Assembly (NCBI RefSeq): GCF_053078305.1
Contig: NZ_CP166879.1
Length of the DNA stretch: 64,000 bases
Reading direction: 5' to 3' (one strand)
In this document: positions 32,936 through 62,935 of the stretch, in pieces
How the letters are laid out: each line of letters opens with the position of its first letter
Numbering within the stretch: the stretch's first letter is position 1
Translations under genes and position numbers: made by a program
The notes under the pieces: model-generated
The model's input: only the letters and a program-made list of their open reading frames with translations
The model's database searches: none
What the model was told of the DNA's origin: nothing

Positions 32936-32937
32936 GA

Positions 32938-34576: not shown

Positions 34577-34600
34577 GTAAGGGAGGCTGTTACGCCTCCC
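34577..34600 (-). terminator. Hairpin downstream of repressor gene
   Basis: gggaggc-tgttac-gcctccc 7-bp stem directly 3' of the cI-like gene on the minus strand. Confidence 0.4.
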
Positions 34601-34619
34601 GATATTTACGGTGGGAATA

Positions 34620-35576: not shown

Positions 35577-35579
35577 CCC

Positions 35580-47935: not shown

Positions 47936-48308
47936 TTTTCGCCGCGACTTCCCGCAGTTTGCTGACCCTGCCAAATATCCCGAAGCGCAAATCCAGTTTC
48001 GTCTGAATCTGGCCGATGAACTGCTGAGCGAAAACGTCACCGGCAAAAAGTTGTTTCCGTACTTTGCCGGGTTGTTCGTTGCGCACTACATGACGCTCTG
48101 GGCGGCAGACAGCCGGGCGATGCTGGCTGGCGAGCCGGGCGGTTCAACCAATGGAGTTCAGTCCTCAAAGTCCGTGGATAAGGTAAGCGTCAGTTATGAC
48201 ACCAGCGCGACGCTGAATCCTGATGCAGGTTTCTGGAATAACACCCGATATGGCGCTGAATTTTATCAGTTGATCACGATGTTCGGTGCAGGTGGTCGCC
48301 AGCTATGA
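47901..48308 (+). CDS. Putative head-tail connector/adaptor
   Basis: 135 aa; overlapping operon organisation. Confidence 0.4.
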
Positions 48309-48859
48309 GTTTCAAAAGCGGTGTAACAACGAGGGTGGATAACGCTAAGGCTATTCTGGATGCGCTCAGGTCGTTAACCAAAAAAGATGTGCTGGTCGGC
48401 ATCCCTTCGGAAGACAGCGAGCGGGATGATGTTCCGTTTGGTAATGCGGGCATCGGTTACCTCAACGAATACGGCTCACCAGAGCAGAACATCCCGCCAC
48501 GACCTCACCTGGTCCCCGGCGTTAAATCGGCAGAAGAGCAGACGGTGCCGCAGCTCAAAGCCGCGGCGCAGGCTGCACTTGATGGTAATGCTGCGGGAGC
48601 AGAAAGCGCACTCAACCGTGCCGGAACACTGGCCGCTAATGGCGTCAGGCGTTACATGACCATTACCGGCTTTACGCCGCTTGCTGACAGTACTGTTGAA
48701 GCCCGGGCTCGTCGGGGGCGCAAGGGGGCAACACTGGAACTTGCCCGGCGTGCTGCTGGCGAATCCCCGGGAACCGAACTGGCGAAACCATTAATTGACA
48801 CCGGGCAATATCGCAGAGCGATTACCCATGTTGTGAGGGATAAAAATGCCGACTCTTGA
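48305..48859 (+). CDS. Putative head completion protein
   Basis: 184 aa; overlapping starts/stops. Confidence 0.4.
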
Positions 48860-49235
48860 TGTAACAGATGTGCTTTTTGACCCCGATTTTTGCGACTTCA
48901 ATTTGTGGGTAACACGCCGTGTGCAAACGGTGGATGAGGACGGGATCGGCAGCGACAGCGAAGTTAAAAAGCAGTTTGCCGGAGTCGTAACTGTTGATCG
49001 CTCTCTGGAAAACCGTCGTATGCAGGCCGGGCAGGTAATCAGCGGTGCAATTCTGATTGTGACGACTGAGCGACTGACGCAGGGACAGACTGGCCGTGAT
49101 GCCGATATCGTGACGTATCAGGGCCGTGATTATCGTGTGACTTTCGTCGACCCGTATACAGCGTATGGTGCCGGATTCGTTCAGGCGCATTGTGAGTTGC
49201 TGCCGTTTGATGGGGGAATTCCGGTTGAGCAATAA
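48846..49235 (+). CDS. Putative tail completion/neck protein
   Basis: 129 aa. Confidence 0.4.
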   Translation: MPTLDVTDVLFDPDFCDFNLWVTRRVQTVDEDGIGSDSEVKKQFAGVVTVDRSLENRRMQAGQVISGAILIVTTERLTQGQTGRDADIVTYQGRDYRVTFVDPYTAYGAGFVQAHCELLPFDGGIPVEQ

Positions 49236-49773
49236 CACCAGCACAGAGCGCGGATGGCTGATACCAACCAGTGGCGATCCGGATTATGACGAAGCGCTCG
49301 ACAGGCTGTTAAGCCAGTGGATGCGTAACGTTTCCGGTCTGTCTGCCGGGATGGTTCGCCCGCGCTGGCAGAAAGAGCAGCCGCCACTGCTACCGGCTGA
49401 AACGAACTGGTGTGCGTTTGGGGTTATCGGATGGTCAGGTGATGACAGTCCGGCATTCACCAGACAGACTGATGATGGCTCTCAGCTCTGGCGGCATGAA
49501 ACGATTGAGTGTATGGCTTCGTTTTATGGTCCGGCGGGGATGGTGTATGCGTCCCGGTTTCGTGACGGTATATCTGTACCGCAGAACAACGCAGCACTGA
49601 ATGTGCTGGGGCTGTCTCTTGGCGATTACACAGGTCTGACTCCCTTCCCTGAACTTATTAATCAGCAATGGGTCCGCCGCTACGATATGACGGTGCGTCT
49701 GCGCCGGAAGGTTGTGCGCGAGTACGGTATTAAATCGCTGGTGGAAGCACCAGTCATCTTTTTCGGAGATTAA
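49165..49773 (+). CDS. Putative tail terminator/neck protein
   Basis: 202 aa; precedes sheath gene. Confidence 0.4.
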   Translation: MVPDSFRRIVSCCRLMGEFRLSNNTSTERGWLIPTSGDPDYDEALDRLLSQWMRNVSGLSAGMVRPRWQKEQPPLLPAETNWCAFGVIGWSGDDSPAFTRQTDDGSQLWRHETIECMASFYGPAGMVYASRFRDGISVPQNNAALNVLGLSLGDYTGLTPFPELINQQWVRRYDMTVRLRRKVVREYGIKSLVEAPVIFFGD

Positions 49774-49776
49774 GCT

Positions 49777-50922
49777 ATGGCACAGGGCTTGCCTGTATCA
49801 AACGTTGTTAATGTTGATGTGATCATGTCGCCGCGTGCAGCATCAGGGCGAAATTTTGGTGCATTACTCATTCTCGGCCCGTCCACAATCATTCCGGTAA
49901 GTGAGCGCATTCGCCGTTATTCTGCCGCGGAAGATATTGGAAAAGATTTTGGCGTGGAATCACCAGAATATAAGGCTGCGCAGGTGTTTTTCTCTCAATC
50001 ACCGAAACCTCAGGAGGTTTTTGTTGGTCGTTGGGTGAAAACGAAGGGAGACAGCGAACAGGCCACGCCTGAGACGCTGGAGCAGGCTGTGAATGCCATG
50101 CTCGATTATACTTCATGGTATGGGCTGGGGATTGCAGACGATGCAGATATTCCGGATGCAGACTGGCTGAAAGTGGCTGCGGCGATCGAATCCTCTTCTG
50201 TAAGCCGTATTCTGGCGATTACGACAAGCGATGAGAAATGCCTGCAGACTGCATCCAGCGATGATTTGGCATCAAAACTGAAAACCGCCGGATATTCACG
50301 CAGTTTTATTCAGTATTCATCGGGTAATAAATACGCTGCGTTATCTGCATTTGGCCGGGCATTCACGGTTAATTTCAATGGCAGTAATACCGCGATTACG
50401 CTCAAGTTTAAGCAGGCGCCGGGCGTCGGGTATGAAACACTGACAGTCAGCCAGGCATCGGCACTTGATGCAAAAAACTGCAATGTGTTCGTGTACTACC
50501 AGAATGATACGGCTATCCTCCAGCAGGGAGTGATGGCTAACGGCGATTTCTTTGATGAACGCCACGGCCTGGACTGGTTACAGAATTATGTGCAGACCAA
50601 CCTCTATAACCTGCTTTATACCAGCACCACGAAAGTACCCCAGACTGAAGCCGGTATTACCAGACTGTTATCAAGTGTTGAAAAATCACTGGATCAGGCC
50701 GTTCAGAATGGACTGATTGCTCCGGGCGTATGGAACGGTGGCGACCTGGGTCAGTTGTCATCAGGTGACACGCTGCCCAAAGGTTATTACGTATACGCCC
50801 AGCCACTGGATGAACAGGCACAATCAGAACGTGAAGCCCGTAAGGCTCCGGTGATTCAGGCTGCAATAAAACTTGCAGGCGCGGTTCATTACGCTGACGT
50901 ACAGATTAACGTTGTTCGCTAA
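49777..50922 (+). CDS. Tail sheath protein
   Basis: 381 aa, first of the sheath-tube-chaperone-tape measure gene order. Confidence 0.6.
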
Positions 50923-50932
50923 GGGGAAGTGA

Positions 50933-51373
50933 ATGTCTACCTATTCTTTTATGGATGTCACTGCGACGCTGACCGGGCCGACCGGTTCGATTGACCTCGG
51001 GTACGGTTCGGCAAGTTCTGAAGAGGGGATTGTGGTTGCGATGGGCGGTCCTAAAAACACCATGACCATCGGTGCTGATGGCGAAGTGATGCACAGTCTC
51101 CATGCAGATAAAAGCGGGACGATTACCGTTAACCTTCTGAAGACATCACCGACAAATAAAAAATTGTCGCTGGCGTATAACGCACAGAGCCAGTCTTCTG
51201 CCACATGGGGGAATAACGTTATCGTGATCCGCAACAAGGTCAGCGGCGACATCATCACGGCACGCAGTGTTGCGTTCCAGAAACAACCGGATAACGCCAA
51301 CGCTAAAACCGGTAATACGATGCCGTGGGTGTTTGACTGCGGCAAGATTGACCAGGTTCTCGGGGAGTTTTAA
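50933..51373 (+). CDS. Tail tube protein
   Basis: 146 aa following sheath. Confidence 0.55.
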   Translation: MSTYSFMDVTATLTGPTGSIDLGYGSASSEEGIVVAMGGPKNTMTIGADGEVMHSLHADKSGTITVNLLKTSPTNKKLSLAYNAQSQSSATWGNNVIVIRNKVSGDIITARSVAFQKQPDNANAKTGNTMPWVFDCGKIDQVLGEF

Positions 51374-51376
51374 TAC

Positions 51377-51829
51377 ATGGAGTTCGAAATCAAAGGCGTG
51401 AAATATCGCGTGGCAAAACTCAGCGTTTTTGACCAGCTGAAAGTGACCCGCAAACTTCTGCCGGTGCTGGCAGGAATGATGTCAGATTTCGGGAGCATTC
51501 GCTCCCGTTTGCCTGCTGATGGCAAAATCGACACCGTGAAATTCGAGCAGTTAAAACCGGTGTTTGAAACCATGCTCCCGCGTATCGCTGAGGAACTGTC
51601 TTCCCTGACCGAAGATGACACCAGTGCGATTATTCATCCCTGTCTTGCGGTGGTATCGCGGCGTCATATGGACGGATGGGTTCCGGTATTTACCCAGGGC
51701 GAACTGATGTTTGATGATATTGACTTGCTGGTCATGCTGCAGCTGGTGGCGCGGGTGGTCGCCGATTCGCTGGGAAATTTTTTGCCTACACCCCTTACCA
51801 GCACGACGCAGAGCCTGCAACAGGGCTGA
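51377..51829 (+). CDS. Tail assembly chaperone (probable -1 frameshift extension to about 52017)
   Basis: 150 aa before tape measure; T-rich slippery run aaatttttttg at 51775..51785; -1 frame open for 80 codons to TGA at 52015..52017. Confidence 0.5.
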   Translation: MEFEIKGVKYRVAKLSVFDQLKVTRKLLPVLAGMMSDFGSIRSRLPADGKIDTVKFEQLKPVFETMLPRIAEELSSLTEDDTSAIIHPCLAVVSRRHMDGWVPVFTQGELMFDDIDLLVMLQLVARVVADSLGNFLPTPLTSTTQSLQQG

Positions 51830-52006
51830 CGTTTAACAGCCTGCCGGACGGGCTGTCCTACCTTCTCAATCCGGTTGACGCCGGGTTAATTCCTTATACA
51901 GCACTTAAAGATGGCTCTGTCGATTTGTACGATATTGCTCTTTTGAATGACCATCTGGCGGTAAAAGCGGATAACCAGCGGCGCATTGAGAAATGGAGAG
52001 AGGATA

Positions 52007-53995
52007 ATGAACGCTGAAACTATTAAAGATTTCCTCGTCTCGCTTGGCTTCAGTGTGGATGATGCAGGAGCGAAAAAGTTCGGTTCTGTCCTCGCCGGTA
52101 CAACTGCAAATGTCATCAAAATGGGGCTGGCCGTTGAAGGAGCCGCGCTGTCCGTGGTGGCCTTCACGGCTAAGATCGCCTCCGGTCTGGATAATCTTTA
52201 CTGGGCGTCACAGCGCACTGGAGCGACAGTCCAGGGAATTCAGTCTATTGGCTATGCGGTTTCGCAGGTTGGCGGCAGCGTGGACGCTGCGCGATCTTCT
52301 CTGGAAAGCCTCTCCCGGTTTATTCGTAATAATCCCGGTGCAGAGGGATTTCTGAATCGCCTGGGGGTACAGACACGGGATGCCAGCGGTAACATGCGTG
52401 ACATGGCCGCTATTTTTACAGGTGTAGGCCAGAAGCTCAGCGGCATGCCGTATTACCGGGCTAACCAGTATGCGCAGATGCTGGGCATTGACGAAAATAC
52501 CCTTATGGCGATGCGTCGGGGTGTGGGTGGTTTCTCCGGGCAGTACAGCGCAATGGCGAAAGCTATCGGCTTCAATGCTGACGAGGCGGCCAGAAGCTCC
52601 AACAAATTTATGACCTCCCTGCGTGAGTTTAGCGCGATGGCAGGCATGGCCCGTGACAAAATCGGCTCTAATCTTGCGGGTGGACTTGCGGGGTCGCTGG
52701 ACACCCTGCGCCGCCATATCCTGGACAACTTCCCGCGCATCGAGCAGACTCTGACGAAAGCCATAAAAGGCATTCTGGCGCTCGGGGATATTATCGGGCG
52801 GCTGTTCTTCAGACTGATTGAGGGGACATCAGGCCTTATCACCTGGTGGCAATCGCTGGATAAGCAAACGCGGGAGTTGATCTCGCTGTTTGGCGCACTG
52901 ACGATTGCGCTGCGCATTCTGAACAGTACGTTCTGGATGTCGCCGATTGGCCTCATTACCGCGCTGGCGGCGGGGATTGCCCTCCTGTGGGAGGACTATC
53001 AGACCTGGAAGGAAGGCGGCGACAGCCTGATTGACTGGGGCAAGTGGAAACCGGAGGTCGATGCCGCGCTGAAGATGGTTCGTGACCTTAAAACAACCGT
53101 TAACGACCTGGTGAAAGCGCTGGCGAAACTGCTCAATATTGACCTCAAATCATGGTCCCTGAAGTGGGATTTCAGCAACTTCATCGACCAGATGGGCGAA
53201 TTCAGCAAAATGCTGAACATGATCGCCGACCTGCTCAACGCTATCAAAGATGGCCGCTGGGCTGATGCCGTCAGCATCGGCAAACAGATACTTAATCAGG
53301 GCAGCGAAAATCCGTCAGCGATGCCGATGGTTACAGACAGCGCTAACAGTACTGCCGACTGGATTAAAGAGCACTGGGGATTCGATCCCCGCAGCGTGGG
53401 CCGGACGGTACGCGGCTGGTTTGGTGATGATGAGCCGGAACAACATGCACAGGCTACGAAACGAGGAGAACGGAATAACAATCCGGGAAACCTTAATTTT
53501 GCTGGTCAGGCAGGGGCTTCTCTTGAACGCCCGGGCGGGCGATTTGCCAGATTTGAAACTGCCTTTGATGGATTACGGGCTCTTGCTCGTCAGTTAATGC
53601 TGTACGCCGGACGGGGAATAAACAGTGTGGAGAAAATTATCTCTACCTGGGCACCTGCGTCTGATAATAACAACACAACTGCGTATATCAGGGCTGTATC
53701 GCAACGACTGGGAGTGGATCCCCGGGCTGCCCTGAATATGAGCGATCCGCAAACCATGTCAGCATTGATGAGCAGCATTATCCAGCATGAAAATGGAAGA
53801 AATATCTATTCTCGAGAGCTGATTAATAAGGCTGCCGTGGCGGGAATTAGTGGCAAAATGACAGAGGTTAACCAGCAAAATACTTACCACATTTACGGTG
53901 GCGGAGATCCGCACGCTGTCGGTAATGAGGTTGCACGTCGGCAACAGTCTGCAAATGCTCAGGTCATGCGAAGTAATCAGGTGAGGGTGGGTTAG
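52007..53995 (+). CDS. Tail tape measure protein
   Basis: About 660 aa, Ala/Gly/Leu-rich helical protein with hydrophobic central segments; ATG at 52007 preceded by ggagagagga. Confidence 0.7.
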   Translation: MNAETIKDFLVSLGFSVDDAGAKKFGSVLAGTTANVIKMGLAVEGAALSVVAFTAKIASGLDNLYWASQRTGATVQGIQSIGYAVSQVGGSVDAARSSLESLSRFIRNNPGAEGFLNRLGVQTRDASGNMRDMAAIFTGVGQKLSGMPYYRANQYAQMLGIDENTLMAMRRGVGGFSGQYSAMAKAIGFNADEAARSSNKFMTSLREFSAMAGMARDKIGSNLAGGLAGSLDTLRRHILDNFPRIEQTLTKAIKGILALGDIIGRLFFRLIEGTSGLITWWQSLDKQTRELISLFGALTIALRILNSTFWMSPIGLITALAAGIALLWEDYQTWKEGGDSLIDWGKWKPEVDAALKMVRDLKTTVNDLVKALAKLLNIDLKSWSLKWDFSNFIDQMGEFSKMLNMIADLLNAIKDGRWADAVSIGKQILNQGSENPSAMPMVTDSANSTADWIKEHWGFDPRSVGRTVRGWFGDDEPEQHAQATKRGERNNNPGNLNFAGQAGASLERPGGRFARFETAFDGLRALARQLMLYAGRGINSVEKIISTWAPASDNNNTTAYIRAVSQRLGVDPRAALNMSDPQTMSALMSSIIQHENGRNIYSRELINKAAVAGISGKMTEVNQQNTYHIYGGGDPHAVGNEVARRQQSANAQVMRSNQVRVG

Positions 53996-54582
53996 TGGAT
54001 ATTCTCTCTACACTTTTTCATCAGCAGAGCAGAAAAATAGGAATGATTGTTCCCAGTGTTGTTATTTCAGAGAAGCATACAGATATGCTTGAAATAACAG
54101 AGCATCCGGTAGAGGTTGGGGCCGCTGTCGCTGATCATGCCTATAAAAAACCGTCAGAAGTGGTGATGGAGGTTGGTTTCGCCGGTGGCGGCGCATTGCT
54201 GGATTTTGCCAGTAATCTGACGGCTACCAGCCTGCTCGGCCTGAGTCCTCAGCAGACGTATCAGGAGCTACTGGATCTGCAGGAAAGCCGTATCCCCTTC
54301 GATGTGGTAACCGGTAAACGACTGTACAGCAACATGTTGATCCGGGCGTTGGAAGTGACGACGGACAAGACAACCGAAAACGTCCTGTCCGCCGTCCTCA
54401 CCCTGAGGGAGGTCATTATCTCCCGGACACAGCAGATTACCGTCGCGGATAAAACCAACATGAAGGAAGGGGCCAGCACGTCGGCGGTACAGAACAGCGG
54501 CAACAAAACCACAAAGCCTCCAGATACTTCACTGCTGAAAAGCATCACGGGTAACGTGGCGTCATTACTGGGGGGCGGCTAA
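53995..54582 (+). CDS. Putative tail/baseplate assembly protein
   Basis: 195 aa; module position only. Confidence 0.4.
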   Translation: MDILSTLFHQQSRKIGMIVPSVVISEKHTDMLEITEHPVEVGAAVADHAYKKPSEVVMEVGFAGGGALLDFASNLTATSLLGLSPQQTYQELLDLQESRIPFDVVTGKRLYSNMLIRALEVTTDKTTENVLSAVLTLREVIISRTQQITVADKTNMKEGASTSAVQNSGNKTTKPPDTSLLKSITGNVASLLGGG

Positions 54583-54884
54583 TGACAATTCAGGAAATTC
54601 CGCTGACAGCGGACAACCAGCAGTTCAGCATCGTCCTGGGGGGTGTCACCTGGCGGATTAGCATCATATGGCGCGATCTGTACTGGATTATGGACCTGCA
54701 GAACGACAGAGGGGAGCCGGTAATCTCCGGTATTCCTCTTGTCACTGGTGCTGACCTGCTGGCGCAGTACGCCTGTATGGGGCTTGGTTTTAAGCTGGTG
54801 GTGGTCTGTGATGACAACACACAGGATTACCCCACAAAAACTGACCTGGGCGGTCGCAGCCATTTACTGGTATCAACGGAGTAA
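54582..54884 (+). CDS. Putative tail protein
   Basis: 100 aa. Confidence 0.35.
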   Translation: MTIQEIPLTADNQQFSIVLGGVTWRISIIWRDLYWIMDLQNDRGEPVISGIPLVTGADLLAQYACMGLGFKLVVVCDDNTQDYPTKTDLGGRSHLLVSTE

Positions 54885-54886
54885 GC

Positions 54887-55951
54887 ATGTCACAGAACTG
54901 GATGAGACATTTCGAGCTGCAGCTTGTGGACGGGAACGGTCAGGGAATTGAGCTAAGTGATTTCAAAGTCACCTTTACGATCGACTGGTTCAACATCAGC
55001 AGCGCGTCCCGGGTAGGGACTATCAAAATTTATAACCTCTCGGCAGATACTGTGAACCGAATTACCGGGCAGGAGTTTTCGAAAGTGCGTCTGATTGCCG
55101 GTTACGACGGTATCGCGCCGGAGGTGTCAGCAAGCGACGTAGGGACCGTGCGGGGAGTTGACGCGGCGGACGTGGGCCAGAGAGATGGCCGCAACTACGG
55201 ACTGATTTTCAGCGGTGAAATTCGCTACTCGGTCACAGGAAAAGACAGTCCGGTTGATACCTACGTCCTGATTCAGGCAGCAGATACTGATCTGGCTTTT
55301 GCCACCAGTATAACCTCACAGACGCTGGCTGCCGGTTACACGGTCGCTGATGTGAACCGTGCGCTGATGAAAGACTTCGAAGCCAAAGGCGCGACCGAAG
55401 GCCTGACGCCTGAAATGCCTGCTACTGTATTCCCCCGGGGGCGGGTACTCTTTGGCATGACGCGGCATCTAATGGATAACGTAGCCGGACAATGTGGCGC
55501 AACATGGCAATTCGTGGACGGTCAGCGCCAGATGGTGGCGAATAACGAATATGTTCACGAAGCGATTGTGCTCAACAGCGCTACCGGGCTTATTGGCATG
55601 CCGCAGCAGACTATCGGTAACGGCGTAAACGTCCGCGCGCTTATTAATCCGAACATCCGGGTTAACGGGCTCATTCAGCTGGATCAGGCTTCCGTCTATC
55701 GTACCGCGTTGTCGAACAACGATATTGCGATGGCTGGTGGTCAGATCACCGACCAGAACACGGACGGAAATATCACGCTCAGCGGCACCACATCGCAGCC
55801 TGCCTGCATCGCAACGGATGGCGTTTATATTGTGCGCGGGATTATGTACACTGGCGACACAAGGGGCCAGGCGTGGTACATGGATATGATGTGTGAAGCG
55901 CGTGGCGCGGCGGATCTTGTTTCCTCATCAGCGAGGGAAAGAGGGCTTTAA
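54887..55951 (+). CDS. Putative baseplate hub / Mu P-like tail protein
   Basis: 354 aa; module position upstream of spike and wedge genes. Confidence 0.5.
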   Translation: MSQNWMRHFELQLVDGNGQGIELSDFKVTFTIDWFNISSASRVGTIKIYNLSADTVNRITGQEFSKVRLIAGYDGIAPEVSASDVGTVRGVDAADVGQRDGRNYGLIFSGEIRYSVTGKDSPVDTYVLIQAADTDLAFATSITSQTLAAGYTVADVNRALMKDFEAKGATEGLTPEMPATVFPRGRVLFGMTRHLMDNVAGQCGATWQFVDGQRQMVANNEYVHEAIVLNSATGLIGMPQQTIGNGVNVRALINPNIRVNGLIQLDQASVYRTALSNNDIAMAGGQITDQNTDGNITLSGTTSQPACIATDGVYIVRGIMYTGDTRGQAWYMDMMCEARGAADLVSSSARERGL

Positions 55952-56286
55952 TGAAACGGTTATGTTTGGCGTTAGTTATGATGGTTACTGCTCCGGCGAT
56001 GGCTGCAATTCAGTGCGGCAACTACACGATGACCGGTGACGGAATGACTGTTATTAACGGTGAAACTGTCACATCACAGAAGATAAAATTTCTGGGAAAA
56101 GATGGTGACTATTCAAACATGAAAATGGACATGGGCCTGATGCCTTCCCGTGATGGTAACAATTACGGCTTTGAGTTTGTGAAACGTAACGGAAAAGCTT
56201 TCCTGAACGTCCAGCTGCTGCAGAACAGCATGGACGCGCCGAAAATCATTGGATCTTTCCCGTGTAAAAAAGTGAGCAGCAAGTGA
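55951..56286 (+). CDS. Secreted small protein of unknown function (cargo inside baseplate operon)
   Basis: 111 aa with cleavable signal peptide MKRLCLALVMMVTAPAMA; start overlaps upstream stop (TAATGA). Confidence 0.45.
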   Translation: MKRLCLALVMMVTAPAMAAIQCGNYTMTGDGMTVINGETVTSQKIKFLGKDGDYSNMKMDMGLMPSRDGNNYGFEFVKRNGKAFLNVQLLQNSMDAPKIIGSFPCKKVSSK

Positions 56287-56795
56287 CAGTTGATGATGAT
56301 CCTTTGAATTCATTTCAAGACCCTGACTTTCAGGAACTTCTCGGCGGAATTGATATTACTCTTGTTATAAGGTTTTTTAATTATTTTTCGCGTTTCGAAT
56401 ATGCGTTAAAAAGAATTAATTTCAAAAAAACTGATCGTAGAAATTATCTAATCGGTGCTGACTGGAGCCGCTACGCTACTGATGATACGCGGCCTTTATA
56501 TCCTACTGGAAATAGAAATGTCGATAGGGCAGTTGAGTATCTATGTCAGCAACCTGTGAAGCAGCAGAGGCATGATTTTTCGTGGGAGGATAAACCTCCA
56601 ATCGAACCTCATTCTCTTGCTGAAGCATTAAAGCAGATCCCGTATATAAGAAATAATCTCTTTCACGGCGGGAAGTATTTACGTCCCGACCCCGTTCGTG
56701 ATGAAAAGTTATTGAAATACTCTATTTATTTGATGCAGTTGTGTTTGATAACTGATAATCAGCTTTCTGAATACTTTAATACTATCCACCGATAG
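56283..56795 (+). CDS. AT-rich protein of unknown function (cargo inside baseplate operon)
   Basis: 170 aa; markedly AT-rich versus flanking baseplate genes; followed by a hairpin plus T-run. Confidence 0.45.
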   Translation: MTVDDDPLNSFQDPDFQELLGGIDITLVIRFFNYFSRFEYALKRINFKKTDRRNYLIGADWSRYATDDTRPLYPTGNRNVDRAVEYLCQQPVKQQRHDFSWEDKPPIEPHSLAEALKQIPYIRNNLFHGGKYLRPDPVRDEKLLKYSIYLMQLCLITDNQLSEYFNTIHR

Positions 56796-56805
56796 TCATT
56801 CTTCA

Positions 56806-56840
56806 TGAGATAAAACCTGCCACCCGGCGGGTTTTTTGCT
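56806..56840 (+). terminator. Possible terminator after cargo gene
   Basis: accc-ggcg-gggt short stem followed by ttttttgcttttt. Confidence 0.4.
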
Positions 56841-56855
56841 TTTTGGAGCCTAACA

Positions 56856-57608
56856 ATGGCAGTAACTGACCAGACCCGCAGTGGCGATCTTGCCGAAACA
56901 TTTAAATCTGAACGGGAAACAACAAAGAACCAGATCCGTGTCGCCTTGCCTGGCATTATTCAGTCATTCGATCCTGACGCGGTGACGGCGGTTGTGCAGC
57001 CAGCTATCCGGTCGGTTGAAAAGGATAACGACGGTAACCGCATTACCAAAAATTACCCATTGCTGGTGGATGTGCCAGTGGTATTCCCGCGCGGCGGAGG
57101 CTGTACGTTGACTTTTCCGGTAAAAGCTGGGGATGAGTGTCTTGTCGTTTTTGCCGATCGTTGTATTGATTTCTGGTGGCAGAGCGGCGGGATACAGGAG
57201 ACGGTTGATGACAGAATGCATGATTTATCGGATGCGTTTTGTATTGTCGGTCCCCAGTCGCAGGCAAGGAAGATTAGCGGTATTAATACCAGTGCCACAC
57301 AGTTGCGTAGTGACGACGGCAGCACCTATTTTGAGCTTAATCCTGATACCCGGAAAATTAAAATTGTCGCTCCGGGGGGGCTTGATGTGGTTGCCCCCCT
57401 GGCTGATTTTTCTGAGAAAGTAACCATTCATGGCCTGTTAACCTGGATGGGGGGCATGGTGGGGTCTGTTGTTTCTGGTGTGGCTTCAAAAATCACTGGT
57501 GCTGTTGAGTTTTTGGGTAGCGTGAAGGCTAACGGCAAGCCAATCGATGATACGCACACTCATGGTGGTGTTCAGCGCGGTGGAAGCAATACCGACGGAG
57601 TAAACTGA
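56856..57608 (+). CDS. Baseplate spike/central needle protein (Mu gp45-like)
   Basis: 250 aa; Gly-rich C-terminal repeats and HTHGGVQRGGSNT tip motif. Confidence 0.55.
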   Translation: MAVTDQTRSGDLAETFKSERETTKNQIRVALPGIIQSFDPDAVTAVVQPAIRSVEKDNDGNRITKNYPLLVDVPVVFPRGGGCTLTFPVKAGDECLVVFADRCIDFWWQSGGIQETVDDRMHDLSDAFCIVGPQSQARKISGINTSATQLRSDDGSTYFELNPDTRKIKIVAPGGLDVVAPLADFSEKVTIHGLLTWMGGMVGSVVSGVASKITGAVEFLGSVKANGKPIDDTHTHGGVQRGGSNTDGVN

Positions 57609-57961
57609 TGCGATACAGACGTGAAGACGCCGATGGCGATTACACCTTTGGCAGCGGTGATGACACCTGGCTGATTAACTCACCGGAGGCCGTGGCGCAG
57701 GCGGTAAAAACGCGATTCGAATTGTGGTATGGGCAATGGTTTCTCGACACCACCGAGGGGACTCCGTGGATCCAGTCCGTACTCGGTAAGCAGAAGCCGG
57801 AAACCTACAACCTGGCGATCCGTAAGCGCATCCTCGAAACGCGGGGCGTTAAATCAATCCTCTCTTTCAATACGACGGTGGATACCACGACCCGACGTGT
57901 CATGTTTTCCGCTGAAATCGACACTCTTTATGGAATAACGACTGTTACATCGGAGGCGTAA
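57608..57961 (+). CDS. Baseplate wedge protein (gp25/W-like)
   Basis: 117 aa, precedes baseplate J. Confidence 0.5.
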   Translation: MRYRREDADGDYTFGSGDDTWLINSPEAVAQAVKTRFELWYGQWFLDTTEGTPWIQSVLGKQKPETYNLAIRKRILETRGVKSILSFNTTVDTTTRRVMFSAEIDTLYGITTVTSEA

Positions 57962-59160
57962 TGGCTCTGAACCTTGATTCTCTCGGTTTATCTGCAAAGG
58001 TAACCGCGGAGGGGATCAGTGCGCCTGATTATCAGACGATACTCAGCACCCTGATTAGCTATTTTCAGCAGATTTATGGCAGTGATGCCTACCTCGAACC
58101 GGACAGCAAAGACGGCCAGATGGTGGCTCTGATGGCGCTGGCGATTCATGATGCCAATAATATGGCGATAACTGTCTACAACTGTTTTTCACCGGCAACC
58201 GGCTATGGGGCTGCACTGACCAGTAACGTGAAAATAAATGGTATTTCACGTAAAGGCGCGACGAACTCTACGGTTGATTTGCTTCTTACAGGAACTGCCG
58301 GAACAACCATCATTAATGGCAGCGTGAAAGACAGTAATAATGTGATATGGCGTTTGCCTGCTTCAGTAGTGGTCGGCGTGGATGGTACAGTGATGGCGAC
58401 CGCAACATGTTCCGTCAGTGGTGCAGTGGCGGCGCTGGCTGGAACTATCACTGAAATTAATACGCCAACCCGTGGCTGGGTTTCGGTAACTAATCCTGCT
58501 GCGGCTACTGTGGGCACTCTGGCAGAAACTGACGCGGAGTTACGTATCCGTCAGTCGCAAAGTGTTGCGTTGCCATCAATAACCCCATTTGAAGCACTGG
58601 ATGGTGCTGTTTCTAATGTTACCGGTGTAACCCGCCACAAACTCTATGAAAACGATACTGGTTCGGAGGACGGTAACGGGTTACCGCCACACTCTGTTGC
58701 TGTAATTGTGGATGGCGGTGATGTGACGGATATTGCTCAGGCTATCAGAGGGAATAAAGGCCAGGGGACAGCCACTCACGGTACAACATCCGTTACGGTT
58801 CCGGATAAATACGGCAATCCCCATGTAATCAAATTCTCGCGTTCCAGTGATGTGCCTGTTTATGCCCGGATTAAATTAAAAGTTTTTACGGGTTATACCT
58901 CACAGATAGGGCAGCAGATCCAGCAGGCTATTTCCGACTATATCAATAGTTTGACGATTGGTGATTCGGTCCTTTTAAGTCGCATTTACTCACCGGCGAA
59001 TCTTGGCGTGGTGAGTGGCGGGAATGCACGCTATTACGATATTCAGGAACTGACGATTGGGAAATCCCCGGGGGCTTTGTCGTCATCAAACATTGATATC
59101 AGATACAACGAATCTGCGTCCTGTACCCCGGAAAATATCGTTATAACGGTGGAGTCATGA
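57961..59160 (+). CDS. Baseplate J-like protein
   Basis: 399 aa; size and position typical of baseplate J. Confidence 0.6.
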   Translation: MALNLDSLGLSAKVTAEGISAPDYQTILSTLISYFQQIYGSDAYLEPDSKDGQMVALMALAIHDANNMAITVYNCFSPATGYGAALTSNVKINGISRKGATNSTVDLLLTGTAGTTIINGSVKDSNNVIWRLPASVVVGVDGTVMATATCSVSGAVAALAGTITEINTPTRGWVSVTNPAAATVGTLAETDAELRIRQSQSVALPSITPFEALDGAVSNVTGVTRHKLYENDTGSEDGNGLPPHSVAVIVDGGDVTDIAQAIRGNKGQGTATHGTTSVTVPDKYGNPHVIKFSRSSDVPVYARIKLKVFTGYTSQIGQQIQQAISDYINSLTIGDSVLLSRIYSPANLGVVSGGNARYYDIQELTIGKSPGALSSSNIDIRYNESASCTPENIVITVES

Positions 59161-59837
59161 GCAAATACACCGAACTAATCACGAACTACCACGCCACCAA
59201 ACCTAAATTTCTTGCGCATGTTGATCTGATGACCCGGCCGCTTATTGATGTTGCGGCTGCCACCAGAGGGCTGATTACTGCATTTGATATTGACTCTGCG
59301 GTTGGTGTGCAACTTGACATTCTGGGATTGTGGATCGGACGTAGCCGTGTTGTCAGCCAGCCTATCTCAGGTGTCTATTTCAGCTGGGATACCGACGGGC
59401 TTGGATATGATCAGGGGGTATGGCAGGGACCATACGATCCTGATTCCGGATACATGTACCTCAGCGATGAAACTTATCGTGTCATTCTTAAAGCGAAGAT
59501 TGCGATTAATAACTGGGATGGACGGAATGATTCGCTTCCGGCAATTCTTGACGCTGCAACAGCAGGATCCGGGCTGCGAATGCAGATAGTCGATAACCAG
59601 GACATGACGATATCGGTCTGGGTCTTTCCTGATACTGATATTTCAGATGTATCGCGTGAGTTAATTGCGGCAATTAAACAGGGGTATCTCACAGTAAAAG
59701 CCGCCGGGGTATGGGCGGGTGGCATTGAAACACCTTCGGTGGAAACCCCATCGGAAGGCTCAAAATTTTTTGGTTTTGATATGGATAACGAATTCATCAG
59801 TGGTTTTGATGTAGGAGCATGGGGAGTATTACTCTGA
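59157..59837 (+). CDS. Baseplate wedge/tail fibre attachment protein (Mu gp48 / P2 I-like)
   Basis: 226 aa following baseplate J. Confidence 0.5.
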   Translation: MSKYTELITNYHATKPKFLAHVDLMTRPLIDVAAATRGLITAFDIDSAVGVQLDILGLWIGRSRVVSQPISGVYFSWDTDGLGYDQGVWQGPYDPDSGYMYLSDETYRVILKAKIAINNWDGRNDSLPAILDAATAGSGLRMQIVDNQDMTISVWVFPDTDISDVSRELIAAIKQGYLTVKAAGVWAGGIETPSVETPSEGSKFFGFDMDNEFISGFDVGAWGVLL

Positions 59838-60292
59838 TGGCGAAAAATGACTTTAAAGCGTTTGCAACGGATCGAAATGCCAATGTTATATCGCAGGAGG
59901 AATGGGAAGCGTTGCCCGCGCTTTTATCCGGATTTACAGCAGGGAAAGCCTCCAGTGCGCAAGTCAATAAGGTTATTCGGCAGGTCAGCTTTATTGCTGC
60001 AGCTCTGGCCCAGTTTGTAAGTGATAAAACGCAACGGGATGTGCTTGATAATGGTGATCTGCCCGGTTTTGTTGAATTGCTGGGATCGGGGTTTGCTGTT
60101 GAATACCTGAGCCGCAAGAATCCGTTTGGTGATATCAAATCGGATGGCACGGTGAAAACGGCTCTCGAAAACCTTGGTTTGGGAGAAGAGCACAGCGTTA
60201 AGCCGGGTTGTTTCTGCCTGCGTCAGCTTCCGCCCGGCCTGCAATTTCAGCTGAATCAGACTAATGGAAGCCATAGCCGCATCAATCAGTGA
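59819..60292 (+). CDS. Tail fibre, constant N-terminal part; truncated in the present orientation of the invertible segment
   Basis: ORF crosses the left recombination site at 60174 (…ALENLGLGE) and then reads antisense to tfa for about 40 codons to a stop. Confidence 0.55.
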   Translation: MGSITLMAKNDFKAFATDRNANVISQEEWEALPALLSGFTAGKASSAQVNKVIRQVSFIAAALAQFVSDKTQRDVLDNGDLPGFVELLGSGFAVEYLSRKNPFGDIKSDGTVKTALENLGLGEEHSVKPGCFCLRQLPPGLQFQLNQTNGSHSRINQ

Positions 60293-60715
60293 CTGGCGCC
60301 GTACTTCTGCCGCGTCTACTGCGGCGTTATGCTGTGCCTCAGTGTCGGTCACCCATTTCTCACCATCCCATTTATCGTATGACGTTAACGGGGCGATAGT
60401 GGTTGTATTTTCAGGGTAATCACCCGGAACTGTGATTTCTTTTGATTCTCCTGTTTCGGTGCTATAGACGATTTCACCGCGATGGTCTGGCACATATTCC
60501 CATGAGTTAAAATCTGCAGAACGGCAAATTGCATAACCAGCTTTATATGAGCCAGGAGCATCTAAACAGGAACATGCCGGGATACCGACACCCACAGCAA
60601 GATATTCAGTTGATGTGGAAATATATTCCCGTGTTTCACCATCATAATTATAAACGGTAATGTCTCCGGCCTTTGTGGCGATGAGTTCATTATTTAATAC
60701 AGCTTTACTTATCAT
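59924..60715 (-). CDS. Tail fibre assembly protein (Tfa/U-like); ORF currently reads through the left recombination site
   Basis: N-terminal 180 aa inside the segment resemble Tfa proteins (…SWEYVPDHRGEIVYSTETGESKEITVPGDYPENTTTIAPLTSYDKWDGEKWV…); last 83 codons lie outside the segment, antisense to the fibre gene. Confidence 0.6.
   Translation of the reverse strand: MISKAVLNNELIATKAGDITVYNYDGETREYISTSTEYLAVGVGIPACSCLDAPGSYKAGYAICRSADFNSWEYVPDHRGEIVYSTETGESKEITVPGDYPENTTTIAPLTSYDKWDGEKWVTDTEAQHNAAVDAAEVRRQSLIDAAMASISLIQLKLQAGRKLTQAETTRLNAVLFSQTKVFESRFHRAIRFDITKRILAAQVFNSKPRSQQFNKTGQITIIKHIPLRFITYKLGQSCSNKADLPNNLIDLRTGGFPCCKSG
60162..60187. repeat. Left recombination site of invertible segment (gix/hix-like, 26 bp)
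   Basis: ctctcgaaaacc-tt-ggtttgggagaa: two 12-bp quasi-palindromic half-sites around a 2-bp core, inverted copy at 61171..61196. Confidence 0.65.
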
Positions 60716-61184
60716 GCAGCCCTCACAATATAATTAAAGGCGATGTTACGGGAGCGGGTTTCAGATGCTGTGCGAACTGAGCGAGATGCGTCGAATGTCC
60801 AGTTATAAGCGCCATAACCCTCAATAATTTCGGCTTCCTTTAGACCTGTAGATAATACTTGCCCATGTTGACTAAATGGCCCTGAACTAAGTACGTCTCT
60901 AAAAAGCTGGGTACGCCCAAAAGAACCAACAATATTCTGAATTGCATCATTCTGTGCAGATAATAAGTTACGACCAGAGTCAATCCCGCGCCCATCATCC
61001 CAGCCACGAATAAATTCACCGCGTAAATCTGGTAATTTTAATGTTGGGTAAGCCTTTGCCAGATTTGGGTACTTTTCAGAAGAAAATACTGCTCCGTTAC
61101 ATTTTAGCCACCCCATTGGCGGAGTGGCTGAAGGCCACGGAACAGGCACACCAACCGGTAATGCAGAGCCTTCTCCCAAACCAA
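60174..61184. other. Invertible DNA segment (about 1 kb) carrying one tail-fibre C-terminus plus tfa cassette
   Basis: Flanked by inverted 26-bp sites (21 of 24 positions identical); invertase gene immediately adjacent. Confidence 0.65.
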
Positions 61185-61224
61185 CGTTTATGAAAATGCA
61201 GAAATAACGAGCAAATGGCATCAT
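60712..61224 (-). CDS. Tail fibre variable C-terminal cassette (tail-collar-like domain), silent in current orientation
   Basis: Open frame begins within the right recombination site (…NVGLGEGSALP…); GWLKCNGAVFSSEKYPNLAKAYPTLKLPDLRGEFIRGWDDGRGIDSGRNLLSAQNDAIQN resembles the phage tail collar domain. Confidence 0.6.
   Translation of the reverse strand: MMPFARYFCIFINVGLGEGSALPVGVPVPWPSATPPMGWLKCNGAVFSSEKYPNLAKAYPTLKLPDLRGEFIRGWDDGRGIDSGRNLLSAQNDAIQNIVGSFGRTQLFRDVLSSGPFSQHGQVLSTGLKEAEIIEGYGAYNWTFDASRSVRTASETRSRNIAFNYIVRAA
61171..61196. repeat. Right recombination site of invertible segment
   Basis: ttctcccaaacc-aa-cgtttatgaaaa, inverted copy of the left site. Confidence 0.65.
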
Positions 61225-61250
61225 TCCTGCTTTTGTCAGGGAGATCTACC

Positions 61251-61805
61251 ATGCTTATTGGCTATGTACGCGTATCAACAAATGACCAGAATACCGATCT
61301 ACAACGTAATGCGTTGAACTGTGCAGGATGCGAGCTGATTTTTGAAGACAAGATAAGCGGTACAAAGTCCGAAAGGCCGGGACTGAAAAAACTGCTCAGG
61401 ACATTATCGGCAGGTGACACTCTGGTTGTCTGGAAGCTGGATCGGCTGGGGCGTAGTATGCGGCATCTGGTCATTCTGGTTGAGGAGTTGCGCGAACGTG
61501 GCGTTAATTTTCGCAGCCTGACGGATGCTATTGATACCAGCACACCGATGGGGCGTTTTTTCTTTCATGTGATGGGGGCCCTGGCTGAAATGGAACGAGA
61601 ACTGATTGTTGAACGAACAAAAGCTGGACTGGAAGCTGCTCGCGCACAGGGACGAATTGGTGGACGTCGTCCCAAACTTACACCAGAACAATGGGCGCAG
61701 GCCGGGCGACTAATTGCATCAGGAGTTCCTCGCCAGAAGGTGGCGATCATTTATGATGTTGGCGTATCGACTTTGTATAAGAAGTTTCCGGTCGGAGATA
61801 AATGA
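61251..61805 (+). CDS. pin: Serine DNA invertase (Pin/Gin/Hin family)
   Basis: MLIGYVRVSTNDQNTDLQRNAL... with catalytic Ser and C-terminal HTH; closely resembles e14 Pin as recalled; ATG at 61251 after aggga. Confidence 0.88.
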   Translation: MLIGYVRVSTNDQNTDLQRNALNCAGCELIFEDKISGTKSERPGLKKLLRTLSAGDTLVVWKLDRLGRSMRHLVILVEELRERGVNFRSLTDAIDTSTPMGRFFFHVMGALAEMERELIVERTKAGLEAARAQGRIGGRRPKLTPEQWAQAGRLIASGVPRQKVAIIYDVGVSTLYKKFPVGDK

Positions 61806-61885
61806 AACCGTAGCACGTCGTATGCAAGAACGTGCCACGGCTGGCTGATAAGCTTGTAAAAATATTGAACAGGGAGTGGAGCATT

Positions 61886-62533: not shown

Positions 62534-62593
62534 TATAAGTACTCGCTAATATTGAACGATATATATATATCAAATTATTATAAAACTCGTCAG

Positions 62594-62935
62594 CTACTGG
62601 AGAAGGCTACCTGAACTTCGATCTATTCCTGCATCCATATAGTTGATGGTCTTCTGGAGCTCTTCGATTAGGGCAACAGCTTTTGCTCGAGAAATGCATA
62701 TTAGTTGATCCGGAAATTCTTGTAAGGGCCAGTTTGGTATACAGGCCATGTTATCAATGAAGGATGCAGACAAGTAAACTTCATTGGTAACCAGAGAATA
62801 GCTTACCTCAAAATTGGTGAGTTCCGGCAAACTGCTAACGTTTGACTCTTTTCTGCGCATAATATTATCCATGACTGTAATTATGTACAGGTGATGGTCT
62901 TCAATTTCGAAGAGGGAGTCAAGGGGGAGTCTCAA
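62594..62935 (-). CDS. Protein of unknown function (cargo, upstream partner)
   Basis: 113 aa, AT-rich, same strand as and 60 bp upstream of the 215-aa gene. Confidence 0.45.
   Translation of the reverse strand: MRLPLDSLFEIEDHHLYIITVMDNIMRRKESNVSSLPELTNFEVSYSLVTNEVYLSASFIDNMACIPNWPLQEFPDQLICISRAKAVALIEELQKTINYMDAGIDRSSGSLLQ

What the first reader, a model, noticed from the sequence alone, without database searches (positions are those of the whole stretch)
51775..52017. Probable programmed -1 frameshift between tail assembly chaperone and tape measure genes
Near the 3' end of the chaperone ORF there is a T-rich slippery run (aaatttttttg, 51775..51785). The -1 frame from that point is open for 80 codons to a TGA at 52015..52017, overlapping the tape-measure start at 52007. 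This mirrors the conserved G/GT-type chaperone frameshift of long-tailed phages.
Basis: partly seen in the sequence, partly recalled or inferred. Interest (0 to 1): 0.4.

Follow-up and report, generated by a model that had tools for sequence, protein, structure and literature searches.

The report
Prophage tail chaperone −1 frameshift site
This is an ordinary, well-supported example of the ribosomal −1 frameshift that long-tailed phages use to make a short and a long tail-assembly chaperone from one gene; here it sits in a common E. coli prophage whose long form is mis-annotated in RefSeq as a separate small gene.

Summary
The run is GGGAAATTTTTTG (51772..51784), with six T, not seven.

- **The genes.** The 150-aa ORF 51377..51829 is a tail assembly chaperone (Pfam Phage_TAC_15, E 4e-31). 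It lies between the tail tube gene and the tape measure gene of a contractile-tailed prophage.
- **The −1 frame.** It is open over 51724..52017 and ends 11 nt into the tape measure gene. It has no usable start codon. It encodes a conserved domain (Pfam DUF6889, E 9e-20).
- **Selection.** It evolves under purifying selection: synonymous to non-synonymous changes are 21:6 and 23:5, against 2:25 in the other frames.
- **Conservation.** The two-frame layout recurs in all 40 phage records and all 76 distinct distant IMG/VR loci examined, down to 29% identity. It is never fused and never +1.
- **The slippery site.** The 13-mer holds three in-phase slippery heptamers: G_GGA_AAT, A_AAT_TTT and T_TTT_TTG. 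At the same codon, relatives keep X_XXT_TTY or at least a T_TTY tetramer.
- **No stimulator.** No downstream RNA structure was found, as in lambda and P2.

GenBank already annotates this frameshift in the relatives Mulock and Magia. RefSeq instead calls a CTG-started "DUF6889 family protein".

Verdict: a new member of a known kind, of low interest, with some value as an annotation correction. Frameshifting itself was not tested experimentally.

The parts
49777..50922 (+). Tail sheath gene (381 aa)
   Evidence: Pfam DUF3383 E 2e-100; phrog_205 'tail sheath' E 4e-135. The relative SEN34 has myovirus morphology by electron microscopy (PMC5261728).
50933..51373 (+). Tail tube gene (146 aa). Its stop lies 3 nt before the chaperone start.
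   Evidence: Pfam KPP10_Orf10 E 9e-61. RefSeq names it 'DUF3277 family protein'. The Magia record notes an XkdM-like match by HHpred.
51377..51829 (+). Short tail assembly chaperone, the 0-frame product (150 aa, TGA at 51827..51829)
   Evidence: Pfam PF21822 Phage_TAC_15, 108.5 bits against a cut-off of 22, E 4e-31. phrog_1688 'tail assembly chaperone' E 3e-65. The AF2 model matches predicted myovirus tail assembly chaperones in BFVD at E 1e-8.
51772..51784 (+). Slippery 13-mer GGGAAATTTTTTG. It holds three overlapping in-phase heptamers: G_GGA_AAT (51772), A_AAT_TTT (51775) and T_TTT_TTG (51778).
   Evidence: It is identical in 76 of 78 intact close IMG/VR relatives. It is also identical in Klebsiella, Salmonella, Yersinia, Hafnia, Citrobacter and Elizabethkingia phages, even though their flanks diverge.
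51775..51781 (+). A_AAT_TTT, the heptamer best supported by family-wide conservation (P site Asn AAU, A site Phe UUU)
   Evidence: Distant relatives keep X_XXT_TTY at this codon: C_CCT_TTT, G_GGT_TTT, T_TTT_TTT or A_AAT_TTT. Some keep only T_TTT. Locus L092 has lost G_GGA_AAT but keeps this heptamer. In E. coli, R_RR.U_UU.Y motifs and homogeneous A-site codons are the better shifters (PMC4066793).
51781..52017 (+). -1-frame extension of the long chaperone (78 codons plus TGA at 52015..52017). The predicted fusion is 213 aa: residues 1-135 from the 0 frame, then FAYTPYQ...REDNER.
   Evidence: translation; third-position substitutions 24/31 and 25/32; synonymous to non-synonymous 21:6 and 23:5, against 2:25 and 2:26 in the other frames; the extension aligns across 13 phages with 57% mean column identity, and conservation begins right at the shift site.
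51892..52008 (+). DUF6889 domain within the extension (fusion residues 173-211)
   Evidence: Pfam PF21829, 70.6 bits against a cut-off of 23.9, E 9e-20. phrog_4364 covers fusion residues 161-213, E 1e-22. AF2 pLDDT is about 90 over the helices at 157-212.
51853..52017 (+). Position of the stand-alone 'DUF6889 family protein' CDS that RefSeq annotates in near-identical E. coli genomes. It has a CTG start and is probably a mis-annotation.
   Evidence: the start codon is CTG; the invariant L21 and P22 of the extension lie upstream of that start.
52007..53995 (+). Tape measure protein gene (662 aa) with a C-terminal lytic transglycosylase region. Its start overlaps the end of the -1 extension by 11 nt.
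   Evidence: phrog_2276 'tail length tape measure protein' E 2.5e-282. Residues 474-649 match endolysin and transglycosylase PHROGs. RefSeq names it 'lytic transglycosylase'. A GGAGAGAGGA Shine-Dalgarno sequence precedes the ATG.

Best explanation
This is a programmed -1 ribosomal frameshift in the tail assembly chaperone gene of a temperate, contractile-tailed E. coli prophage related to Salmonella phage SEN34.

Most ribosomes translate 51377..51829 and release the 150-aa short chaperone. A minority slip back one nucleotide on the 13-nt patch GGGAAATTTTTTG (51772..51784). They then read the -1 frame to the TGA at 52015..52017. The result is a 213-aa long chaperone that carries the DUF6889 domain at its C-terminus.

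Slipping on G_GGA_AAT or A_AAT_TTT gives the junction ...SLGNF-FAYTPY.... Slipping on T_TTT_TTG gives ...SLGNFL-AYTPY.... Family-wide conservation points to the Phe UUU codon at 51779..51781 in the A site, that is A_AAU_UUU, as the core site. The P2-type U_UUU_UUG may add to it.

No RNA stimulator appears to be needed.

By analogy with lambda gpG/gpGT, which is inferred and not shown here, the shared N-terminal domain would coat the tape measure protein. The rare C-terminal domain would recruit the tube protein, so that tail polymerisation starts correctly. Neither chaperone form would end up in the virion.
For: **Shown here**
- Gene identities and order are sheath, tube, chaperone, tape measure.
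- The -1 frame is open for 97 codons, with P about 0.001-0.003.
- The extension matches Pfam DUF6889 (E 9e-20) and phrog_4364.
- The extension is under purifying selection specific to the -1 frame.
- The -1 frame has no ATG, GTG or TTG before 51925.
- Three in-phase heptamers sit where about 0.14 would be expected.
- A tblastn search with the fusion protein hits 40 phage records. Every hit is in two pieces in two frames, down to 29% identity.
- All 17 fetched loci, and all 76 distinct IMG/VR loci from a second, distant clade, have the -1 layout. None is fused and none is +1.
- A slippery heptamer sits at the homologous LGNF codon in 16 of the 17 loci. In the IMG/VR clade, 63 of 76 loci have a heptamer in the overlap. 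In 8 of the other 13 a T_TTT tetramer remains (GGG CCT TTT); the last 5 were mis-parsed by my script.
- Conservation of the extension starts immediately after the site.
- The frameshift product is already annotated in Mulock and Magia.

**From the literature**
- The lambda G/GT mechanism and its wide conservation are reviewed in PMC5009743.
- P2 E/E+E' shifts on TTTTTTG without a hairpin (PMC3091744).
- The rules for which motifs shift well in E. coli are in PMC4066793.
- The same argument, with a GTTTTT motif, was made for related Pakpunavirus and Andersonviridae chaperones (PMC12846349).
Against: - There is no direct evidence for the fusion protein, the shift efficiency or the exact slip site. 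All support is comparative.
- No stimulatory element was found. Fold z-scores of the downstream sequence were -0.45, -1.26 and 0.07, and Rfam gave no hit. Efficiency may therefore be low.
- The T6 run could also support some transcriptional slippage.
- Some GC-rich relatives lack a canonical heptamer, so the family's rule is looser than X_XXY_YYZ.
- The roles assigned to the two domains are by analogy only. The chaperone has no sequence or solved-structure match to lambda or P2 proteins.
Confidence: 0.9

Rival explanations
1. There are two independent genes. The DUF6889 peptide (about 54 aa) would be initiated on its own, for example at the CTG at 51853 that RefSeq uses. It would act as a separate small protein, and no frameshift would occur.
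For: - RefSeq/PGAP annotates it this way in near-identical E. coli genomes.
- Several phage records call a small downstream ORF. These are PSTCR3, BgManors32, ZHS, yong1 and MD-2021a.
- phrog_4364 is a family of such short calls.
Against: - The -1 frame has no ATG, GTG or TTG before 51925, and no Shine-Dalgarno sequence precedes the CTG.
- The invariant L21 and P22, and the conserved F/Y-x-R-x-x-Y motif, lie upstream of every proposed start. Conservation begins at the slippery site.
- The ORF is always in the -1 frame and always overlaps the chaperone 3' end at a slippery motif. Independent genes would not need this.
Confidence: 0.04
2. Transcriptional slippage is the cause. RNA polymerase would stutter on the T6 run and insert one extra U into some transcripts. 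Normal translation of those transcripts would then give the long form.
For: - The window has a T6 run, and some relatives have T7, such as L094 and the 'AAT TTT TTT CCC' group.
- Homopolymer runs are a known cause of indels in mRNA (PMC4066793; PMC5009743).
Against: - Many relatives keep the two-frame layout with runs of only three or four T. Examples are GGA AAT ACT TTC, CCT TTT ATT and AAT TTT ATT. That is too short for efficient polymerase slippage; this judgement rests on general knowledge.
- What the family conserves is the codon phase of the motif (X_XXY_YYZ or T_TTY in the 0 frame). Codon phase matters to ribosomes and not to RNA polymerase.
Confidence: 0.05
3. The feature is a chance open frame or a decaying gene. 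It would be a frameshift mutation in a once-continuous ORF of a defective prophage, with no functional long product.
For: - Prophages often decay. One relative, L090, carries a deletion in this region.
Against: - The same frame structure is present in 336 E. coli genomes, in at least 576 IMG/VR stretches and in cultured, plaque-forming phages such as SEN34, Mulock and Magia.
- The -1 frame shows strong purifying selection.
- No relative has the two parts in one frame.
Confidence: 0.01

Closest known systems
Phage lambda gpG / gpGT tail assembly chaperone -1 frameshift (Levin et al. 1993; Xu et al. 2004, 2013, 2014; reviewed in PMC5009743)
   Same: - The position is the same: between the major tail/tube gene and the tape measure gene.
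[quoted passage not shown]
- The extension ends at the tape measure start.
- The first heptamer here (G_GGA_AAT) is one base from lambda's G_GGA_AAG. Lambda's sequence is recalled from memory.
- No downstream structure is needed.
   Different: - There is no detectable sequence or solved-structure similarity.
- The host phage has a contractile tail.
- The A-site codon of that heptamer is AAU (Asn), not the highly shifty AAG (Lys).
- Two further heptamers overlap it.
Phage P2 E / E+E' frameshift (Christie et al. 2002; summarised in PMC3091744)
   Same: - It is a myovirus, with a -1 shift in the gene between tube and tape measure.
- The slippery sequence TTTTTTG is identical to the third heptamer here (51778..51784).
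- There is no hairpin downstream.
   Different: - The protein family is different: P2 E is 91 aa and E+E' is 142 aa.
- The tail module type is different. P2 has FI/FII, while this prophage has DUF3383 and KPP10_Orf10.
- Many relatives in this family lack TTTTTTG and rely on X_XXT_TTT.
Klebsiella phage Mulock and Burkholderia phage Magia 'tape measure chaperone frameshift product' (GenBank MN098327, NC_070954)
   Same: - They are true homologues, at 58% and 29% identity to the fusion protein.
- Mulock has the same 13-mer, GGGAAATTTTTTG.
- Their annotators joined the CDS as a -1 frameshift product.
   Different: - Those annotations are predictions only; the Mulock announcement does not mention the frameshift.
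- Magia uses C_CCT_TTT.
- The E. coli prophage copies are not annotated this way.
Pakpunavirus / Andersonviridae chaperone locus with GTTTTT motif (phage Adele paper, PMC12846349)
   Same: - The tail module has related parts: a DUF3383-type sheath and a KPP10-type tube.
- The downstream ORF is routinely mis-annotated as a hypothetical protein.
- The -1 frame is open in all alleles.
[quoted passage not shown]
   Different: - Those are lytic Pseudomonas and enterobacterial phages of other families.
- The motif is GTTTTT rather than the triple heptamer.
- Whether its chaperone falls in Pfam Phage_TAC_15 or DUF6889 was not tested here.

Membership tests
G/GT-type tail assembly chaperone frameshift (Xu, Hendrix and Duda 2004) | The gene pair lies between the major tail/tube gene and the tape measure gene. 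| tested here: met
   The order is sheath 49777-50922, tube 50933-51373, chaperone 51377-51829, extension to 52017, tape measure 52007-53995.
G/GT-type tail assembly chaperone frameshift (Xu, Hendrix and Duda 2004) | A second ORF overlaps the 3' end of the first in the -1 frame and has no start of its own. | tested here: met
   The -1 frame is open over 51724..52017 and overlaps the chaperone by 106 nt. The first ATG/GTG/TTG is at 51925.
G/GT-type tail assembly chaperone frameshift (Xu, Hendrix and Duda 2004) | A slippery sequence in the correct phase lies inside the overlap. | tested here: met
   G_GGA_AAT, A_AAT_TTT and T_TTT_TTG are all in phase. The background rate is 0.004 per codon.
G/GT-type tail assembly chaperone frameshift (Xu, Hendrix and Duda 2004) | The arrangement is conserved among divergent relatives despite low sequence identity. 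| tested here: met
   All 40 phage records match in two frames. All 17 fetched loci and all 76 distinct IMG/VR loci have the -1 layout. The slippery site sits at the homologous codon.
G/GT-type tail assembly chaperone frameshift (Xu, Hendrix and Duda 2004) | Both the short and the long protein are made, in a fixed ratio, from one start. | not testable with these tools
   This needs a western blot, mass spectrometry or a reporter assay.
G/GT-type tail assembly chaperone frameshift (Xu, Hendrix and Duda 2004) | Both products are required for tail assembly and are absent from virions. The N-terminal domain binds the tape measure and the C-terminal domain binds the tube protein. | not testable with these tools
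   This is inferred by analogy with lambda (PMC5009743). No interaction data or multimer model was available.
Pfam PF21822 Phage_TAC_15 | The score is above the family's gathering threshold. | tested here: met
   108.5 bits against 22. Residues 6-138 cover profile positions 1-122 of 127.
Pfam PF21829 DUF6889 | The score is above the family's gathering threshold. | tested here: met
   70.6 bits against 23.9 on fusion residues 173-211, which are encoded only in the -1 frame.
Stimulated -1 frameshift of the dnaX / IS3 type | There is a downstream hairpin or pseudoknot, and/or an upstream Shine-Dalgarno-like stimulator. | tested here: not met
   Folds of the downstream sequence do not differ from shuffles (z -0.45, -1.26, 0.07). 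Only the Bordetella relative reached z -2.4. Rfam gave no hit. No clear Shine-Dalgarno sequence lies 6-17 nt upstream, by inspection. This feature is not required for the G/GT type.

The most novel reading that the evidence does not exclude
The 13-nt patch might be more than a redundant slippery site. It could be a tuned 'triple-heptamer' device. Three consecutive chances to slip would set the ratio of long to short chaperone without any RNA stimulator. A double slip (-2) would put the ribosome in a frame that stops at 51836, giving a third, truncated product. Separately, the GC-rich relatives that keep only a U_UUU tetramer (GGG CCT TTT) would be natural cases of functional A-site-only -1 frameshifting in a structural phage gene.
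Probability: 0.12. Interest if true: 0.4.

Novelty: new member of a known kind. Interest (0 to 1): 0.2.

Why it matters
The biology is textbook. Conserved chaperone frameshifting in long-tailed phages has been known since 1993 and 2004, and homologues of this very gene already carry a frameshift annotation in two GenBank phage records.

The practical value is in annotation. In about 300 complete E. coli genomes, and in many phage records, the long form is split. The second part is called either a 'DUF6889 family protein' with a CTG start or an unannotated gap. DUF6889 and phrog_4364 are best read as the C-terminal domain of the long chaperone.

The comparative series collected here could guide a small experimental study of how much P-site re-pairing a natural shift site needs. 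It runs from triple heptamer to single heptamer to T_TTY tetramer, all at one homologous codon.

Tried and rejected
- **Downstream RNA stimulator.** Eight folds of the window and relatives and an Rfam scan at E ≤ 1 found nothing significant in the window.
- **Solved-structure relatives.** phmmer against PDB sequences and Foldseek against PDB gave no match. Only predicted viral chaperones matched.
- **First null model.** I measured -1 extensions beyond the stops of all long ORFs. The test was uninformative because extensions often run into the next real gene. I replaced it with the per-codon stop frequency.
- **The search for related loci with the N-terminal-domain alignment.** It failed because the alignment was too divergent. 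The extension alignment worked.
- **First IMG/VR scan.** It returned only close relatives at 83-100% identity, so I ran a second scan seeded with the Bordetella-type sequence.
- **Automatic frame assignment.** It mis-assigned the 0 frame in five GC-rich loci (L116, L122, L126, L127, L129). These are script artefacts, not exceptions.
- **Literature.** A search for DUF6889 found nothing. The Mulock announcement does not discuss the frameshift.
- **Independent initiation and chance ORF.** Both were considered and rejected; see the rival explanations.
Full report
**What is in the sequence**

The + strand around the finding carries a tightly packed tail operon:
- a 381-aa sheath gene (49777..50922; Pfam DUF3383 E 2e-100; phrog_205 'tail sheath');
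- a 146-aa tube gene (50933..51373; Pfam KPP10_Orf10 E 9e-61);
- a 150-aa ORF (51377..51829);
- a 662-aa tape measure gene that starts at the ATG at 52007 (phrog_2276 E 2.5e-282), with a lytic transglycosylase region near its C-terminus.

The 150-aa ORF is a tail assembly chaperone. It scores 108.5 bits against Pfam Phage_TAC_15 (cut-off 22) and E 3e-65 against phrog_1688.

Most junctions in this operon overlap or are separated by 10 nt or less. The chaperone-to-tape-measure junction instead shows an apparent 177-nt gap.

**Checking the observation**

The sequence at 51772..51784 is GGGAAATTTTTTG.

- In the 0 frame the codons are CTG GGA AAT TTT TTG.
- The -1 frame reads GGG AAA TTT TTT GCC ... 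and stays open to the TGA at 52015..52017, 11 nt past the tape measure ATG.
- The -1 frame is open for 97 codons in all (51724..52017).
- Stops occur in the -1 frame of the 17 neighbouring genes at 7.1% per codon. An open run of 81 codons therefore has P about 0.003, and 97 codons about 0.0008.

The 13-mer contains three overlapping heptamers, all in the X_XXY_YYZ phase: G_GGA_AAT, A_AAT_TTT and T_TTT_TTG. Such in-phase heptamers occur at 0.004 per codon in the tail genes, and this is the only cluster.

**The -1 frame codes for protein**

- The 78-residue extension matches Pfam DUF6889 (70.6 bits against a cut-off of 23.9; E 9e-20) and phrog_4364 (E 1e-22).
- I compared the window with Yersinia phage YP3 and Salmonella phage SEN34, which have the same lengths and no indels. 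In the stretch between the 0-frame stop and the tape measure start, 24 of 31 and 25 of 32 substitutions fall on third positions of the -1 frame.
- Codon changes there are synonymous to non-synonymous 21:6 and 23:5 in the -1 frame. In either other frame they are 2:25 and 2:26.
- The frame has no ATG, GTG or TTG before 51925, where only 30 codons remain and no Shine-Dalgarno sequence is present.
- In an alignment of 13 extensions, mean column identity is 57%, higher than for the N-terminal domain (40%).
- Conservation begins directly after the slippery site, with the motif F/Y-x-R-x-x-Y followed by an invariant L-P.

**Comparative evidence for the frameshift**

- A tblastn search with the conceptual 213-aa fusion finds 40 phage records. 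Hosts include Escherichia, Klebsiella, Salmonella, Yersinia, Hafnia, Citrobacter, Providencia, Edwardsiella, Elizabethkingia, Bordetella, Ralstonia, Burkholderia and Acinetobacter. Identity goes down to 29%. Every match is split into two pieces in two frames.
- In all 17 loci I fetched, the -1 frame is open across the chaperone stop and runs to the tape measure start.
- Sixteen of these 17 have an in-phase heptamer at the homologous codon of the conserved L-G-N/P-F motif. The variants are A_AAT_TTT, C_CCT_TTT, G_GGT_TTT, T_TTT_TTT or G_GGA_AAT. The seventeenth, Edwardsiella ZHS, keeps only GAT TTT, a T_TTT tetramer.
- IMG/VR holds at least 576 related stretches. Of 78 intact close relatives, 76 keep the 13-mer exactly. 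L092 has CTC GGA AAT TTT TTG, which loses the first heptamer. L094 has T7.
- A second scan, seeded with the Bordetella-type extension, gave 76 distinct loci from a distant clade. All have the -1 layout; none is fused in frame or +1. Sixty-three have a canonical heptamer in the overlap.
- Of the 13 without a heptamer, eight read GGG CCT TTT and so keep only the T_TTT tetramer. The other five are artefacts of my frame-assignment script in GC-rich genomes.
- A Bordetella-like subclade has CTG GGA AAT A(C/T)T TTC, that is G_GGA_AAT plus a T_TTC tetramer.

The common denominator is a Phe UUY codon preceded by U, placed in the ribosomal A site.

**Which heptamer is used here**

This is not resolved.
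- Family conservation favours A_AAU_UUU (51775..51781).
- So do the E. coli rules of Sharma et al. Their tetramer hierarchy is A_AA.G >> U_UU.C > U_UU.U > ..., homogeneous A-site codons shift better, and R_RR.U_UU.Y is notably efficient (PMC4066793).
- However, T_TTT_TTG is exactly the proven P2 E/E+E' site (PMC3091744).
- G_GGA_AAT is one base from lambda's G_GGA_AAG. Lambda's sequence is recalled from memory.

The first two heptamers give the same product (...GNFFAYTPY...). The third gives ...GNFLAYTPY....

**Stimulators**

I found none. Folds of the downstream RNA are no more stable than shuffled sequence (z -0.45, -1.26, 0.07). Rfam has no hit at E ≤ 1. This matches P2, where no hairpin is present.

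**Protein-level picture**

An AlphaFold2 model of the fusion, built on a 13-sequence alignment, has mean pLDDT 81.9 and pTM 0.74. It shows:
- a confident N-terminal domain of strands and helices (residues 1-137);
- a lower-confidence linker (pLDDT 66-75);
- a confident helical C-terminal domain (157-212, pLDDT about 90).

Foldseek finds no solved structure. It does find predicted myovirus tail assembly chaperones at E 1e-8, and also the 'tape measure chaperone' of Citrobacter phage Moogle.

The functional assignment is by analogy with lambda gpG/gpGT (PMC5009743) and is not shown here. In that model the N-terminal domain binds the tape measure and the C-terminal domain recruits the tube protein.

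**Rivals**

- *Independent initiation of a small DUF6889 protein.* This is what RefSeq annotates, with a CTG start at the equivalent of 51853. It is contradicted by the lack of a start codon and Shine-Dalgarno sequence, by conserved residues upstream of that start, and by the invariable -1 overlap at a slippery motif.
- *Transcriptional slippage on T6.* It cannot be excluded as a minor contributor. It does not explain relatives with only T3-T4 runs, nor the conservation of codon phase.
- *A decaying gene.* This is excluded by purifying selection and by the presence of the arrangement in plaque-forming phages.

**Context and novelty**

The window carries a prophage of about 40 kb between yfhL and yfhH. 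It is a mosaic relative of one in E. coli NCTC9022. The chaperone region is found in 336 of 5426 complete E. coli genomes. The tail module is related to Salmonella phage SEN34, which is a myovirus by electron microscopy (PMC5261728).

The frameshift is already annotated as a prediction in the homologues Mulock and Magia. An equivalent comparative argument was published for related Pakpunavirus and Andersonviridae chaperones (PMC12846349).

The finding is therefore a correct call of a known mechanism in a family where it has been predicted but, as far as I could find, never tested. I rate it a new member of a known kind, of low interest. Its modest value lies in correcting the annotation of DUF6889 and phrog_4364, and in the natural series of slippery-site variants.

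Noticed in passing
window 51853..52017 (RefSeq NZ_LR134237.1 1393840..1394004, locus L001 2054..2218): RefSeq/PGAP annotates a stand-alone 54-aa 'DUF6889 family protein' with a CTG start codon in near-identical E. coli genomes. That start lies downstream of invariant residues of the domain. The CDS is most likely the tail end of the frameshift product. The same split annotation, or an empty gap, occurs in many phage records, including SEN34, YP3, PSTCR3, yong1 and BgManors32.
   Followed up: yes
window 51794..51799 (CTTACC); homologous positions in L007, L010, L011, L013, L014, L017, L120-L154: The hexamer CTTAC(C/G) lies 12 nt 3' of the Phe codon. It is conserved from E. coli to Burkholderia, Acinetobacter and Bordetella relatives that share only about 30% protein identity. 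It encodes L-T in the 0 frame and Tyr in the -1 frame. I could not tell whether this reflects dual-coding constraint or an RNA-level element such as spacer or rRNA pairing.
   Followed up: partly
L120, L128, L132, L135, L145, L146, L148, L154 (IMG/VR relatives): These GC-rich relatives read GGG CCT TTT at the shift codon. They have no canonical X_XXY_YYZ heptamer and keep only a U_UUU A-site tetramer, yet they retain the full -1 layout. They are possible natural cases of tetramer-only frameshifting.
   Followed up: partly
L090 (IMGVR_UViG_2906166205_000002), locus 316..1225: A deletion joins a 246-aa head-module gene directly to the middle of the chaperone extension. The match starts at extension residue 5 and no slippery site remains. 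This looks like a degraded prophage. An ATG-started 96-aa ORF now covers the DUF6889 part.
   Followed up: partly
window about 22900..62900 (mapped from NZ_LR134237.1): The whole prophage sits between yfhL and yfhH. It is a mosaic of the NCTC9022 prophage: blocks of 94-99% identity are interrupted by unrelated segments, for example window 25922..28282, 34099..38928 and 55893..56810. By mapping from the annotated relative, it carries its own DNA polymerase plus a cluster of Nmad5, DUF2815, DUF2800, VRR-NUC and SNF2 genes, which suggests nucleotide modification or replication functions.
   Followed up: no
window about 61090..61850: This region matches a pinE-type site-specific DNA invertase (96% identity). 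In the relative it lies next to tail-fibre and fibre-assembly genes, which suggests an invertible host-range segment.
   Followed up: no
window 50472..50478 (sheath gene) and 53485..53491 (tape measure gene): Other in-phase slippery heptamers lie inside tail genes: A_AAA_AAC in the sheath gene and G_GGA_AAC in the tape measure gene. They are probably chance occurrences, since the background rate is 0.004 per codon. I did not examine what the -1 frame would encode there.
   Followed up: no
window 52007..53995: The tape measure protein carries a lytic transglycosylase-like region (residues 474-649 match endolysin and transglycosylase PHROGs). RefSeq names the whole gene 'lytic transglycosylase', which hides its tape measure role.
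   Followed up: partly
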